A stretch of 30,887 nt of DNA, from NCBI RefSeq assembly GCF_003334785.1, contig NZ_QOWV01000027.1. One strand, written 5' to 3'. The stretch's first letter is position 1. Every line of letters begins with the position of its first letter. This stretch comes from Escherichia coli. GTDB taxonomy: Bacteria; Pseudomonadota; Gammaproteobacteria; Enterobacterales; Enterobacteriaceae. The notes beneath the pieces are model-generated. The model saw only the letters and a list, made by a program, of their open reading frames with translations, had not been told where the DNA came from and ran no database searches. Position numbers and translations under genes: made by a program. Positions 6,093-26,994 of the stretch are shown here, one piece after another.

Positions 6093-6138
6093 GAGTAAAA
6101 ATGACTCGCTACCCGCAGCAGGCGAGTCATTTTTACTC
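6093..6138. promoter_or_regulatory. ZraR enhancer: inverted repeat of two 17-bp half-sites between divergent sigma54 promoters
   Basis: GAGTAAAAATGACTCGC (6093..6109) and its exact reverse complement GCGAGTCATTTTTACTC (6122..6138) separated by 12 bp; position and symmetry match the described ZraR binding region of zraP/zraSR. Confidence 0.7.
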
Positions 6139-6658: not shown

Positions 6659-7360
6659 TCAGAACGTTTTCTCGTTGGGTTGCCAGCGACAGAAATCAGA
6701 GTTTGCCACTAACAGTAATTGCGAACCTTCGGGCGCTTCCAGCCATGCCACGCTGACATCAACAGAAGAGCGGCTCTGGCGGCGCTCGATATGCGCTATC
6801 GCCTGCGAATCTAAATCAGGTTTAATGGTTTGCCCTTCGCAGGTGGTCACGGTCTGTTCCATCGCATGCCAGCGCCCCTGGCGCAGCACGACTCTCCCCT
6901 GACGTAAGGCATCGCTAATCTGGCGGATCTGATCAGCACGATAACGGTATAAATCGATTTGGTCGTTAGAAAGCTGCTGCTTTTCCCCATCGGATTCACG
7001 TTGCATAAAGCTCAGATCACCGCGATCGTCAAAACGCGCGCGAATATTCACCGGCGGTTTGCTGTAAACATTGATATTGATGAGCGTGAGGTTATCGCCC
7101 TGCCAGCGATACTCTCGCGTCGTGGTATCGCCACTGCGCCACGGGCTAAACACGGCAAGCAGATGCACATTATCGCCGCTGTCTTTTCGCCAGATGCGTA
7201 CCGCGCCCTGGTCTTCAGCAAATCCACTGGCGGTAAAGGGAGGAAGTGAAGAGTTATGACTACAGGCAGTGAGAAGCAGAGCGCCAGCCAGCATCAATGA
7301 TCGACGCCAGAAAGACAAAAGGGGTGAAACCACCCCTTCGTTAAAACTGTTCACTGCCAC
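6659..7360 (-). CDS. yjaH: DUF1481-family putative lipoprotein
   Basis: ORF with RR n-region, hydrophobic core LMLAGALLL and lipobox LLTAC; track start at 7360 is GTG; alternative in-frame starts at 7354 (GTG) and 7294 (ATG). Start uncertain because the hupA terminator hairpin lies within the 5' end of this ORF. Confidence 0.8.
   Translation of the reverse strand: MAVNSFNEGVVSPLLSFWRRSLMLAGALLLTACSHNSSLPPFTASGFAEDQGAVRIWRKDSGDNVHLLAVFSPWRSGDTTTREYRWQGDNLTLININVYSKPPVNIRARFDDRGDLSFMQRESDGEKQQLSNDQIDLYRYRADQIRQISDALRQGRVVLRQGRWHAMEQTVTTCEGQTIKPDLDSQAIAHIERRQSRSSVDVSVAWLEAPEGSQLLLVANSDFCRWQPNEKTF
7311..7336 (-). terminator. Rho-independent terminator downstream of hupA
   Basis: Minus-strand RNA: GGGGUG-GUUU-CACCCC followed by UUUUGUCUUU, about 30 nt after the hupA stop. 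Confidence 0.7.
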
Positions 7361-7366
7361 GCAATC

Positions 7367-7639
7367 TTACTTAACTGCGTCTTTCAGTGCCTTGCCAGAA
7401 ACAAATGCCGGTACGTTAGCTGCGGCAATTTTGATTTCTTTACCGGTCTGCGGGTTGCGGCCAGTACGCTCAGCGCGGTGGTTCACTTTGAAGGTACCGA
7501 AACCAACCAGTTGTACAGCATCGCCTTCTTTCAGAGACTCAGTAATTGCAGCCAGAGTGGACTCCAGAGCAGCTTTAGCCTGGGTTTTGGACAGTTCTGC
7601 TTTCTCTGCAATTACATCAATCAGTTGAGTCTTGTTCAT
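7367..7639 (-). CDS. hupA: DNA-binding protein HU-alpha
   Basis: 90 aa [71 protein letters not shown]; AAGGA SD upstream. Confidence 0.98.
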
Positions 7640-7740
7640 AAGTTATCCTTACAATGTGTTTATCGCTTGCTAAGCATCGAGTGCGACGGAAATGCCAGAA
7701 TAGCACTCTCCTGCATACACGCACCGATAGCCACTTTTTT

Positions 7741-7773
7741 TCGCCCCCCAAATGTAGACCAGACGGGGGGCGA
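7741..7773. other. GC-rich stem-loop (9-bp stem TCGCCCCCC / GGGGGGCGA, 15-nt loop) in the yjaG-hupA spacer
   Basis: Seen directly; flanked by T7 on the plus strand upstream, so on the minus (transcribed) strand the hairpin is followed by A7 rather than U-run: not a canonical intrinsic terminator. Confidence 0.4.
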
Positions 7774-7825
7774 AAGGGAAGACTCCAGGTACGACAAATC
7801 AGGCGTTAAATCACGTTTTCTGGTC

Positions 7826-8416
7826 TTATTGCTGAAAAATTATACCAACATTGCTCTCACCCGCCTCACGCAGGTCTGCCCTAAGGCCTTTTATCAGCTC
7901 GATATCGCGTTCTTCGCACTCAGCTAAAAGTCGGAATATTTCCCACTGAATGTCCCATTCTTGCTCTACAGCTGGGTTTTCTTTAAGCTCTTCATCGCTC
8001 ATTTCGCGACCAGCCTGAGTCATTTCCAGCATCGCAACGGTCGTGATGGAGGTCTTACTCACTTCCACCGCGTGTTCGAGCGTTTCACCACTCAAACGCG
8101 AATGGACCAGTTCACTTAACGCCACGCAGGCATCGATTGCCGGATAAACGCCGTACAGATCGAAATCGTCGGCTGAAGGAATCGCTTCTTCAAATTTCTC
8201 CAGTTGGCTGTCGAAATTTACTTTTGCGTCTTTAACGGTCAGCGTTTCCCAGATGAGATCGAGAATGCGACGGTAAATTTGCCCATCACCAAAACCGGTT
8301 TGCTGGCAGAACATGGCGTAATTGGGGTACATGCGTTCGCATAAGCAAGCCATGAAAGTGACATGCTGCCAGCTTTCCAGGCGCTCCAGACGCAGATGAA
8401 TTGGGTTTTGTAACAT
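7826..8416 (-). CDS. yjaG: DUF416-family protein
   Basis: 196 aa MLQNPIHLRLERLESWQHVTFMACLCERMYPNYAMFCQQ; length and sequence consistent with E. coli YjaG. Confidence 0.9.
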   Translation of the reverse strand: MLQNPIHLRLERLESWQHVTFMACLCERMYPNYAMFCQQTGFGDGQIYRRILDLIWETLTVKDAKVNFDSQLEKFEEAIPSADDFDLYGVYPAIDACVALSELVHSRLSGETLEHAVEVSKTSITTVAMLEMTQAGREMSDEELKENPAVEQEWDIQWEIFRLLAECEERDIELIKGLRADLREAGESNVGIIFQQ

Positions 8417-8458: not shown

Positions 8459-9130
8459 TTAGGGCTGATTTGCTGTATAGCGCACGAACGCCGGACGTTC
8501 CGAGGCCACCGCGTCCGCCCAGCGCGTTGGCTCCGGCAGACGATAGCCTTTCATGCAGCGTTGTACCCACGCCAGCGCGCTGTCCACGCTGACCCGATGG
8601 CCGGTAGCGATAAACAACGGGTTACAGCGCGCTTTGCTGCGCCAGACCCAGGCCAGCTGCTCGCCTTTATCCATCAGTGGGGCCAGCGCGCCCGGTTCGC
8701 TGGAGAGCGGTTCGAATTTACCGCAGAGCCGTTTTTTCGCCACGCCAATGGTCGGCACATCCACCAATAAGCCAAAATGGCTGGCGACGCCAAGACGGCG
8801 AGGATGCGAGATCCCATGACCATCGACAAACACTAAATCCGGCTTTTGCGACAGCATCTCCCACGCTGCCAGCAGCGCAGGATATTCGCGGAAGGAAAGA
8901 AAACCTGGAATGTAAGGCATGGTGGTGGCGATGCGGGCAACTTTATACTCGACCAGCTCAAGCGAGGGATATTTCAGCAGCACCATCGCCGCTCGCGTCA
9001 CTTCTCCGCCCTGCTCAAACCCGACATCGGCTCCGGCGATCAGATCCGGTGGATCTTTATCGAGTCGATCCTCGCGGATCACAGAAGAAGCCAGTTCGAT
9101 TTGTTGAGCGCGTAATGACGCGAGATCCAT
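8459..9130 (-). CDS. nfi: Endonuclease V (deoxyinosine 3' endonuclease)
   Basis: 223 aa from ATG at 9130 ([17 protein letters not shown]...), GGAG SD in the 9-nt gap after hemE stop; track ORF begins two codons earlier at a GTG (9136). Confidence 0.93.
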
Positions 9131-9139
9131 AATCACTCC

Positions 9140-10204
9140 TTAGCGGTGATACTGTTCAGACAGTCGATGCACTGCCTCCACGAACACGCCAGCATGTTCT
9201 GGCGGCACATCCTGATGAATGCCGTGACCAAGGTTAAAGACATGACCTTCGCCGTGACCGAAACCTGCAAGTATAGTCGCTACTTCTTCTTCAATGCGGG
9301 CAGGCGGCGCGTACAGCATCGACGGATCCATATTACCCTGCAACGCGACTTTATTGCCCACACGGCGGCGCGCATCGGCGATGTCCGTTGTCCAGTCGAG
9401 GCCCAGCGCATCGCAACCGGTTTCTGCCATGGCTTCCAGCCACTGTCCGCCGCCTTTGGTAAACAGCGTGACCGGTACGCGGCGACCGTCGTTTTCACGC
9501 AGTAAACCATCAACAATTTTATGCATGTAATAGAGCGAGAACTGTTGATAATCGCGCCCGGTAAGCACGCCGCCCCAGGTGTCGAAAATCATCACTGCCT
9601 GAGCACCGGCTTTAATCTGCGCATTCAGATACAAAGTGACGCTTTTCGCCAGTTTATCGAGCAGAGCGTGCAGCGCCTGCGGATCGGCATACATCATTTT
9701 TTTGATCACGGTGAAGGCTTTGCTGCTGCCGCCTTCCACCATGTAGGTCGCCAGCGTCCACGGGCTGCCGGAAAAACCAATCAGCGGCACTTCGCCTTTC
9801 AGTTCGCGACGAATGGTACGCACCGCGTTCATCACGTAACCCAGTTCATCTTCCGGGTCCGGAATTGGCAGTTTATCGACGTCAGCTTTGCAGGTGACTG
9901 GCGAGGTAAAACGCGGACCTTCTCCGGCTTCAAAATAGAGCCCTAACCCCATCGCGTCCGGCACGGTGAGGATATCGGAAAAGAGGATCGCCGCATCCAG
10001 CGGGTAGCGACGCAGCGGTTGCAAAGTCACTTCGCACGCCAGCTCGGCGTTTTTGCACAGCGACATAAAATCGCCTGCCTGGGCGCGCGTGGCTTTATAT
10101 TCCGGTAGATAGCGACCCGCCTGGCGCATCATCCATACTGGAGTGACATCAACGGGCTGGCGCAGCAGCGCCCGCAGATAACGATCGTTTTTAAGTTCGG
10201 TCAT
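9140..10204 (-). CDS. hemE: Uroporphyrinogen decarboxylase
   Basis: 354 aa [36 protein letters not shown] (URO-D signature). Confidence 0.97.
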
Positions 10205-11622: not shown

Positions 11623-11648
11623 GCCCCATTTGCGGGGCTAATTTCTTG
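11623..11648 (+). terminator. Possible weak terminator / hairpin after rsd
   Basis: GCCCC-ATTTGC-GGGGC followed by TAATTTCTT; short stem and interrupted U-tract. Confidence 0.3.
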
Positions 11649-11740
11649 TCGGAGTGCCTTAACTGGCTGAGACCGTTTATTCGGGATCCGCGGAACCTGA
11701 TCAGGCTAATACCTGCGAAGGGAACAAGAGTTAATCTGCT
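11640..11740 (+). ncRNA. TPP (thiamine pyrophosphate) riboswitch, thi-box aptamer in the thiC leader
   Basis: Contains the conserved thi-box elements GGAGUGCC ... CUGAGA ... GGAACCUGAUCAGGCUAAUACCUGCGAAGGGAA; located 80-180 nt upstream of thiC ATG; followed by a second hairpin ATCGCC-CCTGC-GGCGAT (11748..11764) plausibly part of the expression platform. Aptamer boundaries approximate. Confidence 0.9.
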
Positions 11741-17432: not shown

Positions 17433-17600
17433 GAAAATAAGAACACATGTTCTCATCTTCCAGGATGCAGCAGACTGAAGAAATTCAGACATCCCGCAAC
17501 CTGCGATTATCGCAAGGTCAAGGCAAAGTCCGGTAATGGCGTTCTGAATACCAGAGATAATTCTCTGGCGAAACCCACCTTAAGGTGGGTTTTGTTATTT
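17433..17600 (+). ncRNA. sroH: Candidate small RNA (SroH-like) in the thiH/htrC convergent spacer, ending at an intrinsic terminator
   Basis: Promoter as above plus terminator AACCCACC-UUAA-GGUGGGUU followed by UUGUUAUUUU (17572..17600) define an approximately 165-nt non-coding transcript; an sRNA named SroH of about this size has been reported between htrC and thiH in E. coli K-12 (recalled from literature, exact coordinates not verified). Confidence 0.55.
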
Positions 17601-26924: not shown

Positions 26925-26955
26925 AAAAAGGCTGGTGACTAAAAAGTCACCAGCC
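26925..26955 (-). terminator. rplL-rpoB intercistronic transcriptional attenuator
   Basis: Minus RNA: GGCUGGUGACU-UUUUA-GUCACCAGCC followed by UUUUUGC, about 40-70 nt after rplL stop; matches the classical partial terminator that sets the r-protein:RNAP ratio. Confidence 0.8.
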
Positions 26956-26994
26956 ATCAGCCTGATTTCTCAGGCTGCAACCGGAAGGGTTGGC

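What the first reader, a model, noticed from the sequence alone, without database searches (positions are those of the whole stretch)
7731..7780. Unexplained GC-rich stem-loop between yjaG and hupA
A 9-bp all-G/C stem with a 15-nt loop, flanked by T7 on the plus strand. In the transcribed (minus) orientation the hairpin is followed by A7, not a U-tract, so it is not a canonical yjaG terminator. It could be an RNase-protective structure, a Rho-dependent pause element or a protein-binding site upstream of the hupA promoters.
Basis: seen in the sequence. Interest (0 to 1): 0.3.

Follow-up and report, generated by a model that had tools for sequence, protein, structure and literature searches.

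The report
Inverted repeat inside the hupA promoter
The GC-rich stem-loop between yjaG and hupA is real, but it is not an RNA terminator or RNA-protective structure: it is an inverted repeat lying across the core promoter of hupA, the gene for the DNA-packaging protein HU-alpha, and was already described in the 1990s as a possible cruciform through which HU represses its own gene.

Summary
An 11-bp perfect inverted repeat (arms 7739-7749 and 7765-7775, 15-nt spacer) sits in the 186-bp yjaG-hupA spacer of E. coli, and K-12 is identical there. No U-tract follows it on either strand.

It is not a transcript-end element. Term-seq data show no 3' end there, Rfam has no match, and 89 related loci give no significant covariation.

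The "loop" (TCTGGTCTACATTTGG) is invariant and the 3' arm nearly so, while the outer 5' arm drifts without compensation. The best sigma-70-like site in nearly every species is TTC(A/C)(C/A)N-N17/18-TACATT. In E. coli this is -35 TTCCCT (7780-7775) and -10 TACATT (7756-7751). The repeat therefore spans the promoter spacer, the -10 hexamer, the G-rich discriminator and the predicted start site (about 7743-7745).

A secondary source cites Kohno et al. 1990 and 1994 for a large inverted repeat overlapping the hupA promoter, whose HU-promoted cruciform represses transcription. This is the only such repeat in the spacer.

Caveats:
- I could not read the original papers.
- I found no mapped transcription start site.
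- The stem is strongest in Escherichia and much weaker elsewhere.

Verdict: an already known, ordinary regulatory feature of low interest.

The parts
7765..7775 (-). 5' (upstream) arm of the inverted repeat, TTTCGCCCCCC on the minus strand. It lies in the spacer of the predicted hupA promoter, and its first T is the last base of the -35 hexamer.
   Evidence: The outer bases (TTTCG) vary freely among relatives without compensation, while the C-run is largely conserved.
7750..7764 (-). 15-nt 'loop', GTCTGGTCTACATTT on the minus strand. It contains the predicted -10 hexamer.
   Evidence: TCTGGTCTACATTT is invariant or nearly so in all 89 Enterobacterales loci carrying the anchor. TCTACATTT persists even in a relative with 58%-identical YjaG that lacks the repeat.
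7751..7756 (-). Predicted -10 hexamer TACATT of the hupA promoter.
   Evidence: It is part of the top PWM hit in 13 of 14 species. The tool scan flags TTCACA-18-TACATT as the only promoter-like site in the Rahnella and Kluyvera loci.
7775..7780 (-). Predicted -35 hexamer: TTCCCT in E. coli, TTCACA in most other genera. The spacer is 18 bp, ranging 17-19 across species.
   Evidence: TTC is invariant. The E. coli version matches only 3 of 6, so the default scan misses it.
7739..7749 (-). 3' (downstream) arm, GGGGGGCGAAA on the minus strand. It forms the G-rich discriminator, the predicted transcription start and the first transcribed bases.
   Evidence: It is nearly invariant, but G to A, T or AA changes in the G-run occur in many genera without compensation.
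7743..7745 (-). Predicted hupA transcription start, 6-8 nt after the -10. This corresponds to MG1655 U00096.3 about 4,200,175-4,200,177 and gives a 5' UTR of about 105 nt. Inferred, not measured.
   Evidence: Geometry. The coordinate mapping was checked against Term-seq entries at 4200253 (-28 from hupA) and 4200389 (+108).
7735..7741 (-). A7 tract on the minus strand (T7 on the plus strand). Three of the A's belong to the 3' arm, and the tract lies at about +4 to +10 of the predicted transcript.
   Evidence: It is mostly conserved, with variants such as AAAAAAC, AAAATAA and TAAAAAAA.
7640..7744 (-). Predicted hupA 5' UTR. It is almost invariant across Enterobacteriaceae, and its last ~30 nt are the published RaiZ/ProQ target.
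7811..7819 (-). Conserved upstream motif AAAACGTGA, which resembles a CRP half-site. It is centred about 60-65 bp upstream of the predicted start.
   Evidence: Searches show the conservation. Assigning it to CRP is my inference from the consensus and from the title of Claret & Rouviere-Yaniv 1996 (reference seen).
7367..7639 (-). hupA coding sequence (HU-alpha, 90 aa).
7826..8416 (-). yjaG coding sequence (DUF416, 196 aa).
7318..7339 (-). hupA intrinsic terminator, the only terminator-like site called nearby. It matches the strong Term-seq 3' end at MG1655 4200605 (about window 7315).

Best explanation
The stem-loop is a DNA-level inverted repeat built into the core sigma-70 promoter of hupA. 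It is not an RNA element of the yjaG transcript.

Reading the minus strand:
- The -35 hexamer is TTCCCT (7780-7775).
- The 5' arm (7775-7765) fills the first part of the 18-bp spacer.
- The 15-nt 'loop' carries the rest of the spacer and the -10 hexamer TACATT (7756-7751).
- The 3' arm (7749-7739) is the G-rich discriminator, the transcription start (about 7743-7745) and the first transcribed bases.

The hupA mRNA therefore starts inside the 3' arm and never contains the whole hairpin.

The published model is from Kohno et al. 1990 and 1994, known to me only through a citing paper. In it, negative supercoiling, increased or stabilised by HU, extrudes the repeat as a cruciform. This puts the -10 in a single-stranded loop and distorts the -35/-10 geometry, so RNA polymerase cannot bind. 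HU thereby represses its own alpha-subunit gene.

Shown here:
- the repeat exists;
- the loop and 3' arm are strongly conserved as primary sequence;
- the best promoter-like site coincides with the repeat in every genus examined;
- there are no RNA 3' ends at the site.

Inferred:
- the exact start site;
- the identity of this repeat with Kohno's repeat;
- the cruciform/HU mechanism itself.

I put about 0.85 on 'the repeat overlaps the hupA core promoter and is the published one', and about 0.5 on the cruciform actually operating in vivo. The overall confidence given (0.6) is for the whole statement.
For: 1. It is the only inverted repeat of 8 nt or more lying wholly within the yjaG-hupA spacer, with 11-nt perfect arms. 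The only other repeat reported there has one arm on the yjaG stop codon. K-12 is identical.
2. PMC3969353 states that the E. coli hupA promoter overlaps a large inverted repeat able to form a cruciform, that HU facilitates the cruciform, and that this sterically hinders the promoter. It cites Kohno 1990 (J Mol Biol 213:27) and Kohno 1994 (J Biochem 115:1113).
3. In 60 Enterobacteriaceae sequences, the spacer from the C-run down to the ATG is 95-100% identical. yjaG four-fold degenerate sites are only 43-57% identical.
4. The loop is invariant. That is expected for a -10 element and unexpected for a hairpin loop.
5. My PWM scan ranks TTC(A/C)(C/A)N-N17/18-TACATT first in 13 of 14 species.
6. 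The independent tool scan finds TTCACA-18-TACATT as the sole promoter-like site in 600 bp of the Rahnella and Kluyvera loci.
7. Alternative -10 candidates fail on conservation. TATCGG becomes TGTCGG in Dickeya, Pectobacterium and Lonsdalea. TATGCA is lost in Pantoea. TATTCT is TTTTCT outside Escherichia.
8. Indels in the C-run change the spacer only between 17 and 19 bp.
9. A relative with 58%-identical YjaG keeps TCTACATTT.
10. Term-seq (Adams 2021) lists 3' ends at 4200253, 4200389 and 4200605 but none at 42001xx-420022x.
11. hupA is reported as activated by DNA relaxation (PMC8301835). That is the direction expected if negative supercoiling extrudes an inhibitory structure.
Against: - No experimentally mapped hupA start site could be retrieved. 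The original papers are not held, and the supplements of seven TSS or 3'-end studies gave nothing. The promoter geometry is therefore a prediction.
- The E. coli -35 (TTCCCT) matches only 3 of 6, and the default scan calls no promoter in E. coli.
- The repeat is not maintained as a structure. There are 0 compensatory pairs in Enterobacteriaceae, and paired cells are 82.3% against 82.5% in shuffles.
- In the wider set there are only 4 singleton double changes, not above shuffles at 34/500.
- Stem stability ranges from -24.4 kcal/mol (RNA) and -14.0 (DNA) in Escherichia down to about -8 and -2 in other genera.
- One distant relative has no repeat at all.
- A 15-nt spacer between 11-bp arms is unfavourable for cruciform extrusion (general knowledge).
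- The cruciform mechanism rests on 1990s work that I know only second-hand.
Confidence: 0.6

Rival explanations
1. Same location, but the palindrome is incidental. The C-run in the spacer and the G-run in the discriminator are each conserved for their own reasons, for example a GC-rich discriminator setting sensitivity to ppGpp/DksA or supercoiling, or a spacer contact. No hairpin or cruciform forms in vivo, and the perfect 11-bp symmetry is an Escherichia-specific accident.
For: - There is no significant covariation, and RNAalifold does not predict the stem from the alignment.
- E. coli has the strongest stem of the 37 variants. Many genera carry uncompensated C-A or other mismatches in mid-stem.
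- A distant relative keeps the -10 motif without any repeat.
- The long 15-nt spacer disfavours extrusion (general knowledge).
Against: - Promoter spacers are not normally conserved, yet the C-run is nearly invariant.
- Some complementarity of at least 4-5 bp between the C-run and G-run exists in all 89 loci carrying the anchor motif.
- There are lineage-specific restoring changes: A-T at the C62/G86 pair in Rahnella/'Hafnia', and C-G plus G-U in Pantoea.
- Published experiments are reported to support HU- and structure-dependent repression.
- hupA rises on DNA relaxation despite a GC-rich discriminator.
Confidence: 0.22
2. Different promoter geometry. The hupA promoter lies one helical turn or more downstream, for example -35 TTGGGG inside the 3' arm and -10 TATCGG (7729-7724) with a start near 7716. 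The repeat would then cover about -59 to -23, overlapping only the -35 and an UP-like A-tract.
For: - The literature summary says only that the repeat 'overlaps' the promoter, which also fits this geometry.
- TATCGG and its surroundings are highly conserved in Enterobacteriaceae.
- The A7 tract would sit where UP elements lie (general knowledge).
Against: - TATCGG lacks the near-universal T at -7, and its A at -11 is G in Dickeya, Pectobacterium and Lonsdalea.
- This pair does not appear among the top PWM hits in any species.
- It leaves the invariance of TCTGGTCTACATT unexplained.
Confidence: 0.1
3. RNA-level element of yjaG read-through transcripts. The hairpin would act as a 3'-end protective or RNase-barrier structure, or as an RNase III processing site that separates yjaG from hupA mRNA.
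For: - The RNA hairpin is stable at -27.3 kcal/mol, z = -3.07.
- No terminator is called between yjaG and hupA, so read-through transcripts probably contain it.
- Pantoea's G-U pair would help RNA pairing but not DNA pairing.
Against: - There are no 3' ends at or near the hairpin in the Term-seq lists.
- Covariation is not significant, and the loop is invariant while the 5' arm drifts.
- There is no Rfam match.
- The stem is weak in most genera.
Confidence: 0.05
4. Rho-dependent terminator or transcriptional pause element for yjaG.
For: The upstream arm is C-rich, and there is no intrinsic terminator after yjaG.
Against: - rut sites are C-rich and unstructured over about 70-80 nt, whereas here the C-run is sequestered in a stem next to a G-run (general knowledge).
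- No 3' ends were detected.
- The conservation pattern fits a promoter.
Confidence: 0.03
5. The invariant 'loop' is the binding site of a sequence-specific regulator (FIS or CRP are reported regulators of hupA), and the flanking arms merely frame it.
For: - The 16-nt loop-centred motif is invariant.
- hupA is reported to be regulated by CRP and FIS (title of Claret & Rouviere-Yaniv 1996, seen).
Against: - The motif contains a good -10 hexamer at the correct distance from a conserved -35, which already accounts for its conservation.
- I saw no CRP-like palindrome in the loop. The CRP-like half-site is about 60 bp further upstream.
Confidence: 0.05

Closest known systems
Inverted repeat / potential cruciform at the E. 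coli hupA promoter (Kohno et al. 1990, J Mol Biol 213:27; Kohno et al. 1994, J Biochem 115:1113)
   Same: - Same gene, organism and intergenic region.
- It is the only substantial inverted repeat in the spacer.
- It overlaps the best-supported core promoter.
- The K-12 sequence is identical.
- The reported behaviour of hupA, activated by DNA relaxation, fits the model.
   Different: Nothing is demonstrably different. However, I could not read the original coordinates, so the identity is inferred. The comparative data add that the perfect repeat is essentially an Escherichia feature and is not maintained by compensatory change elsewhere.
Rho-independent (intrinsic) terminator
   Same: It has a GC-rich stem in an intergenic region downstream of a gene.
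   Different: It has a 15-nt loop and no U-tract after the stem on either strand, since the T- and A-tracts are on the 'wrong' sides. No mapped 3' end is present.
Promoters with a GC-rich discriminator, under stringent or supercoiling-sensitive control (e.g. rrnB P1, tyrT, fis)
   Same: A G/C run (TGGGGGGCG) sits between the -10 and the start, and the gene's expression is growth-phase dependent (general knowledge).
   Different: Those promoters need high negative supercoiling. hupA is reported to be activated by relaxation. Here the discriminator is additionally complementary to a C-run in the spacer.
REP/BIME and ERIC extragenic palindromes
   Same: It is an intergenic palindrome in an enterobacterial genome.
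   Different: It is single-copy, with a median of one place per E. coli genome and one match in the window. It has no REP consensus. A genuine ERIC-like insertion is seen nearby only in Dickeya, at a different position.

Membership tests
Intrinsic terminator | G+C-rich hairpin with a short loop (about 3-8 nt) | tested here: not met
   The stem is G+C-rich, but the loop is 15 nt (13 with the wobble pair). The terminator scan does not call it.
Intrinsic terminator | Run of U immediately 3' of the stem on the transcribed strand | tested here: not met
   The minus strand has the stem followed by AAAAAAAGTGG. The plus strand has the stem followed by AAAGGGAAG.
Intrinsic terminator | RNA 3' ends mapping a few nt after the stem | tested here: not met
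   The Adams 2021 Term-seq lists have no entry at MG1655 42001xx-420022x. The flanking entries 4200253, 4200389 and 4200605 are present. The held files may be truncated, which is a caveat.
Sigma-70 core promoter (of hupA) | -10 hexamer with A at position 2 and T at position 6, conserved among orthologous loci | tested here: met
   TACATT (7756-7751) is invariant in all 89 Enterobacterales loci carrying the anchor motif and in a relative with 58%-identical YjaG.
Sigma-70 core promoter (of hupA) | -35 hexamer 16-18 bp upstream | tested here: met
   Most genera have TTCACA (5 of 6) at 18 bp. E. coli has TTCCCT (3 of 6). TTC is invariant.
Sigma-70 core promoter (of hupA) | Experimentally mapped transcription start 6-8 nt after the -10 | not testable with these tools
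   The original papers are not held. TSS tables in the supplements searched held no hupA entry.
HU-responsive cruciform operator (Kohno model) | Perfect or near-perfect inverted repeat overlapping the -35/-10 region | tested here: met
   An 11-bp perfect repeat spans from the last base of the -35 to about +5.
HU-responsive cruciform operator (Kohno model) | Extrusion under negative supercoiling and HU-dependent repression | not testable with these tools
   Only indirect evidence is available: a literature statement and the report that hupA is activated by DNA relaxation.
HU-responsive cruciform operator (Kohno model) | Evolutionary maintenance of arm complementarity | tested here: inconclusive
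   C-run/G-run complementarity is present in all loci carrying the anchor motif. However, there are many uncompensated mismatches, DNA stem energy ranges from -14 to -2 kcal/mol, and covariation is not above shuffles.
Structured cis-regulatory RNA or sRNA | Match to a curated RNA family, or covariation-supported helix | tested here: not met
   No Rfam hit reaches gathering score. The only local hits have E > 1 and are noise. There are 0 compensatory pairs in the 59-sequence set, and RNAalifold omits the stem.
REP/ERIC repeated palindromes | Many dispersed copies per genome | tested here: not met
   There is one place per genome (median 1, maximum 2) in 5,421 E. coli genomes, and it is unique in the window.

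The most novel reading that the evidence does not exclude
The C-run/G-run pair that brackets the -10 hexamer could be a conserved, structure-forming sensor of supercoiling or HU level used throughout the Enterobacterales. Partial stems exist in all 89 loci carrying the anchor motif, and there are lineage-specific restoring changes in Rahnella/'Hafnia' (C-G to A-T) and in Pantoea. On this reading a promoter-embedded hairpin or cruciform would be a general homeostatic feedback device for HU-alpha, not an E. coli curiosity. It would also be a rare example of a DNA secondary structure under selection inside a core promoter.
Probability: 0.1. Interest if true: 0.45.

Novelty: already known. Interest (0 to 1): 0.12.

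Why it matters
It matters little beyond correct annotation. The element should be labelled as part of the hupA promoter, an autoregulatory inverted repeat, and not as a yjaG terminator or an RNA motif.

The comparative result adds one point. The -10 and discriminator are invariant, whereas the stem is strongest in Escherichia and decays elsewhere without significant compensation. This is a mild caution about how general the 1990s cruciform model is. It also points to a simple test: mutations in the 5' arm lie in the promoter spacer and should separate structure effects from core-promoter effects.

Tried and rejected
- **Original papers.** Kohno 1990, Kohno 1994 and Claret & Rouviere-Yaniv 1996 are not held.
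- **hupA TSS or yjaG 3' end in supplements.** I searched Thomason 2015 (not held), Kim 2012, Ettwiller 2016, Yan 2018, Conway 2014, Dar & Sorek 2018 and Ramachandran 2014. None gave an entry.
- **Smirnov 2017.** It describes the hupA 5' UTR and RaiZ pairing but does not state the UTR length in the main text.
- **Rfam.** Gathering-score and permissive searches found nothing meaningful at the site.
- **Terminator scan.** It calls only the hupA terminator at 7339-7318.
- **Alternative -10 candidates.** TATCGG, TATGCA and the E. coli-specific TGcTATTCT were rejected as the conserved promoter because key bases are not conserved.
- **Long-range pairing.** An 8-nt complementarity links the loop (7756-7763) to the yjaG stop region (7819-7826). 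I rejected it because the upstream partner varies among genera.
- **Small ORFs.** The ORFs over the site (7654-7809 +, 7660-7797 -, 7617-7751 -) were not pursued. Near-total nucleotide invariance, including would-be third codon positions, does not look like coding constraint.
- **Deeper relatives.** One relative (L092) has an unalignable AT-rich spacer. Another (L093) has lost yjaG-hupA synteny.

Full report
**Context.** The window is the E. coli chromosome around hupA. On the minus strand lie hemE (9140-10204), nfi (8459-9136), yjaG (7826-8416), hupA (7367-7639) and yjaH (6659-7360). The yjaG-hupA spacer is 7640-7825 (186 bp). It is identical in K-12 MG1655 and is present once in 5,421 of 5,426 complete E. 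coli genomes.

**The observation.** The spacer contains one perfect inverted repeat.
- Its arms are 7739-7749 and 7765-7775, 11 nt each, with 15 nt between them.
- The all-G/C core is 8 bp, not 9. Three A-T pairs extend it.
- As single strands, the RNA folds at -27.3 kcal/mol (z = -3.07) and the DNA at -14.9 kcal/mol (z = -3.72).
- The pattern occurs once in the window against none in 100 shuffles.
- Perfect repeats of this size are about 30-fold more frequent in the window than in shuffles, 5 against 0.165.
- On the transcribed (minus) strand the stem is followed by A7. On the plus strand it is preceded by T7 and followed by AAAGGG.

Neither orientation gives a stem followed by a U-tract, and the terminator scan ignores it.

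- *3' ends.* The supplementary tables of Adams et al. 2021 (PMC7815308) list 3' ends at MG1655 4200253, 4200389 and 4200605 on this strand. They list nothing at 42001xx-420022x. The hairpin corresponds to 4,200,145-4,200,181. I verified the mapping MG = 4200281 + (7639 - p) from the '-28' and '+108' annotations of two of those ends.
- *Covariation in Enterobacteriaceae.* I collected 80 loci and aligned 60 sequences (59 distinct) of the spacer. For the 12-pair stem there are 0 compensatory pairs. Paired cells are 82.3% against 82.5% in shuffles, and six pairs depart only by unpaired cells. RNAalifold does not predict the stem.
- *Covariation in the wider set.* I added Erwinia, Pantoea, Paramixta, Dickeya, Rahnella, 'Hafnia', Serratia, Pectobacterium and Lonsdalea, giving 40 distinct variants. 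This yields four singleton double changes, including a C-G to A-T change in Rahnella/'Hafnia'. None of the measures exceeds the shuffle control convincingly: 34/500 for pairs and 179/500 for percentage paired.
- *Stem stability.* It varies from -24.4 (RNA) and -14.0 (DNA) kcal/mol in Escherichia to about -8 and -2 in other genera.
- *Rfam.* There is no match.

**What the conservation shows instead.** The spacer length is fixed at 186 +/- 1 bp across Enterobacteriaceae.
- From the C-run down to the ATG, the sequence is 95-100% identical. yjaG four-fold degenerate sites are only 43-57% identical.
- The 'loop' TCTGGTCTACATTTGG is invariant.
- The 3' arm is nearly invariant.
- The outer 5' arm (TTTCG) varies freely.

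An invariant loop with a drifting arm is the opposite of what a selected hairpin shows. It is what a protein-read DNA sequence shows.

**Promoter assignment.**
- A position-weight scan of the spacer in 14 species ranks the same site first in 13 of them: TTC(A/C)(C/A)N, 17-18 bp, TACATT.
- The tool's independent consensus scan finds TTCACA-18-TACATT as the only promoter-like site in 600 bp of the Rahnella and Kluyvera loci.
- In E. coli the -35 has diverged to TTCCCT (3 of 6), which is why the default scan finds nothing there.
- Competing -10 candidates are not conserved at their critical bases. TATCGG is TGTCGG in three Pectobacteriaceae. TATGCA is lost in Pantoea. TATTCT is TTTTCT outside Escherichia.
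- Indels in the C-run keep the spacer between 17 and 19 bp.
- A reduced-genome relative with 58%-identical YjaG still has TCTACATTT but no flanking repeat.

In window coordinates the layout is:

| Element | Sequence (minus strand) | Window coordinates |
|---|---|---|
| -35 hexamer | TTCCCT | 7780-7775 |
| 5' arm (in the spacer) | TTTCGCCCCCC | 7775-7765 |
| -10 hexamer (in the loop) | TACATT | 7756-7751 |
| 3' arm (G-rich discriminator, start, first transcribed bases) | GGGGGGCGAAA | 7749-7739 |
| Predicted start | - | about 7743-7745 |

This start is a prediction. I could not retrieve a mapped one.

**Literature.** PMC3969353 summarises Kohno et al. 1990 and 1994. According to that summary:
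- the hupA promoter overlaps a large inverted repeat with cruciform potential;
- HU facilitates the cruciform by raising negative superhelicity;
- the cruciform sterically blocks the promoter, giving autoregulation.

The repeat studied here is the only substantial one in the spacer, so I infer it is that repeat. A review table reports hupA as activated by DNA relaxation (PMC8301835). That is the direction expected if supercoiling-driven extrusion is inhibitory, and it is unusual for a promoter with a GC-rich discriminator. The originals are not held.

**Assessment.** The location, inside the hupA core promoter, and the identity with the published repeat are well supported (about 0.85). The cruciform mechanism is plausible and published, but my comparative data do not strengthen it.
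- The perfect repeat is essentially confined to Escherichia and a few close relatives.
- Mismatches are tolerated widely.
- The 15-nt spacer is unfavourable for extrusion.

The main rival is that the palindrome is incidental, formed by two independently conserved G/C runs. RNA-level explanations (protective hairpin, Rho pause) are poorly supported.

**Verdict.** This is a real feature and already known. Its biology is ordinary promoter biology with an old, still incompletely tested structural twist. Interest is low.

Noticed in passing
window 7691-7707 (minus strand); L081 and L086: A small hairpin in the predicted hupA 5' UTR (AGUGCU-AUUCU-GGCAUU) has a conserved stem and a variable loop. In Dickeya the loop carries an ERIC-like insertion of about 125 bp, and in Pectobacterium a shorter insertion. 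The site appears to tolerate or attract insertions.
   Followed up: partly
L090 (E. coli O157:H7 strain 9.1_Anguil), insertion at about window 7707/7708: An IS3-family transposase element is inserted between the predicted hupA promoter and the hupA coding sequence, at the same 5' UTR hairpin. In that strain hupA must be driven by something else, either an outward IS promoter or the local TGcTATTCT.
   Followed up: partly
window 7697-7705 (minus strand): TGcTATTCT is an extended -10-like motif specific to Escherichia. The A is a T in almost all other genera. It could be a secondary, lineage-specific hupA promoter.
   Followed up: no
window about 7667 (MG1655 4200253): A Term-seq 3' end in one of the Adams 2021 lists lies 28 nt upstream of the hupA start codon. 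This is at the edge of the ~30-nt region reported to pair with the ProQ-dependent sRNA RaiZ and to be cut by RNase III in vitro (PMC5391140).
   Followed up: partly
window 7811-7819 (minus strand): AAAACGTGA, just downstream of the yjaG stop codon, is conserved in all Enterobacterales loci examined. It resembles a CRP half-site and is centred about 60-65 bp upstream of the predicted hupA start.
   Followed up: no
window 6095-6136: A 15-nt perfect inverted repeat (GTAAAAATGACTCGC...) with a 12-nt spacer lies in the zraP-zraS divergent region. It is presumably a regulator (ZraR) binding site.
   Followed up: no
window 17433-17593, 11640-11740, 26929-26990: Three Rfam gathering-score hits: the sRNA sroH, the TPP riboswitch upstream of thiC, and 'P26' downstream of rplL. 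The last coincides with an 11-nt perfect repeat at 26930-26955.
   Followed up: no
L036 (CACSKA010000020.1) and protein P0089: A contig labelled Chryseobacterium sp. 18061 and a protein labelled Vagococcus sp. WN89Y both carry typical Enterobacteriaceae yjaG-hupA sequence. They are probably contaminated or mislabelled assemblies.
   Followed up: no
window 7756-7763 and 7819-7826: There is an 8-nt perfect complementarity between the hairpin loop (AGACCAGA on +) and the yjaG stop-codon region. The upstream partner is not conserved among genera, so it is probably chance.
   Followed up: yes
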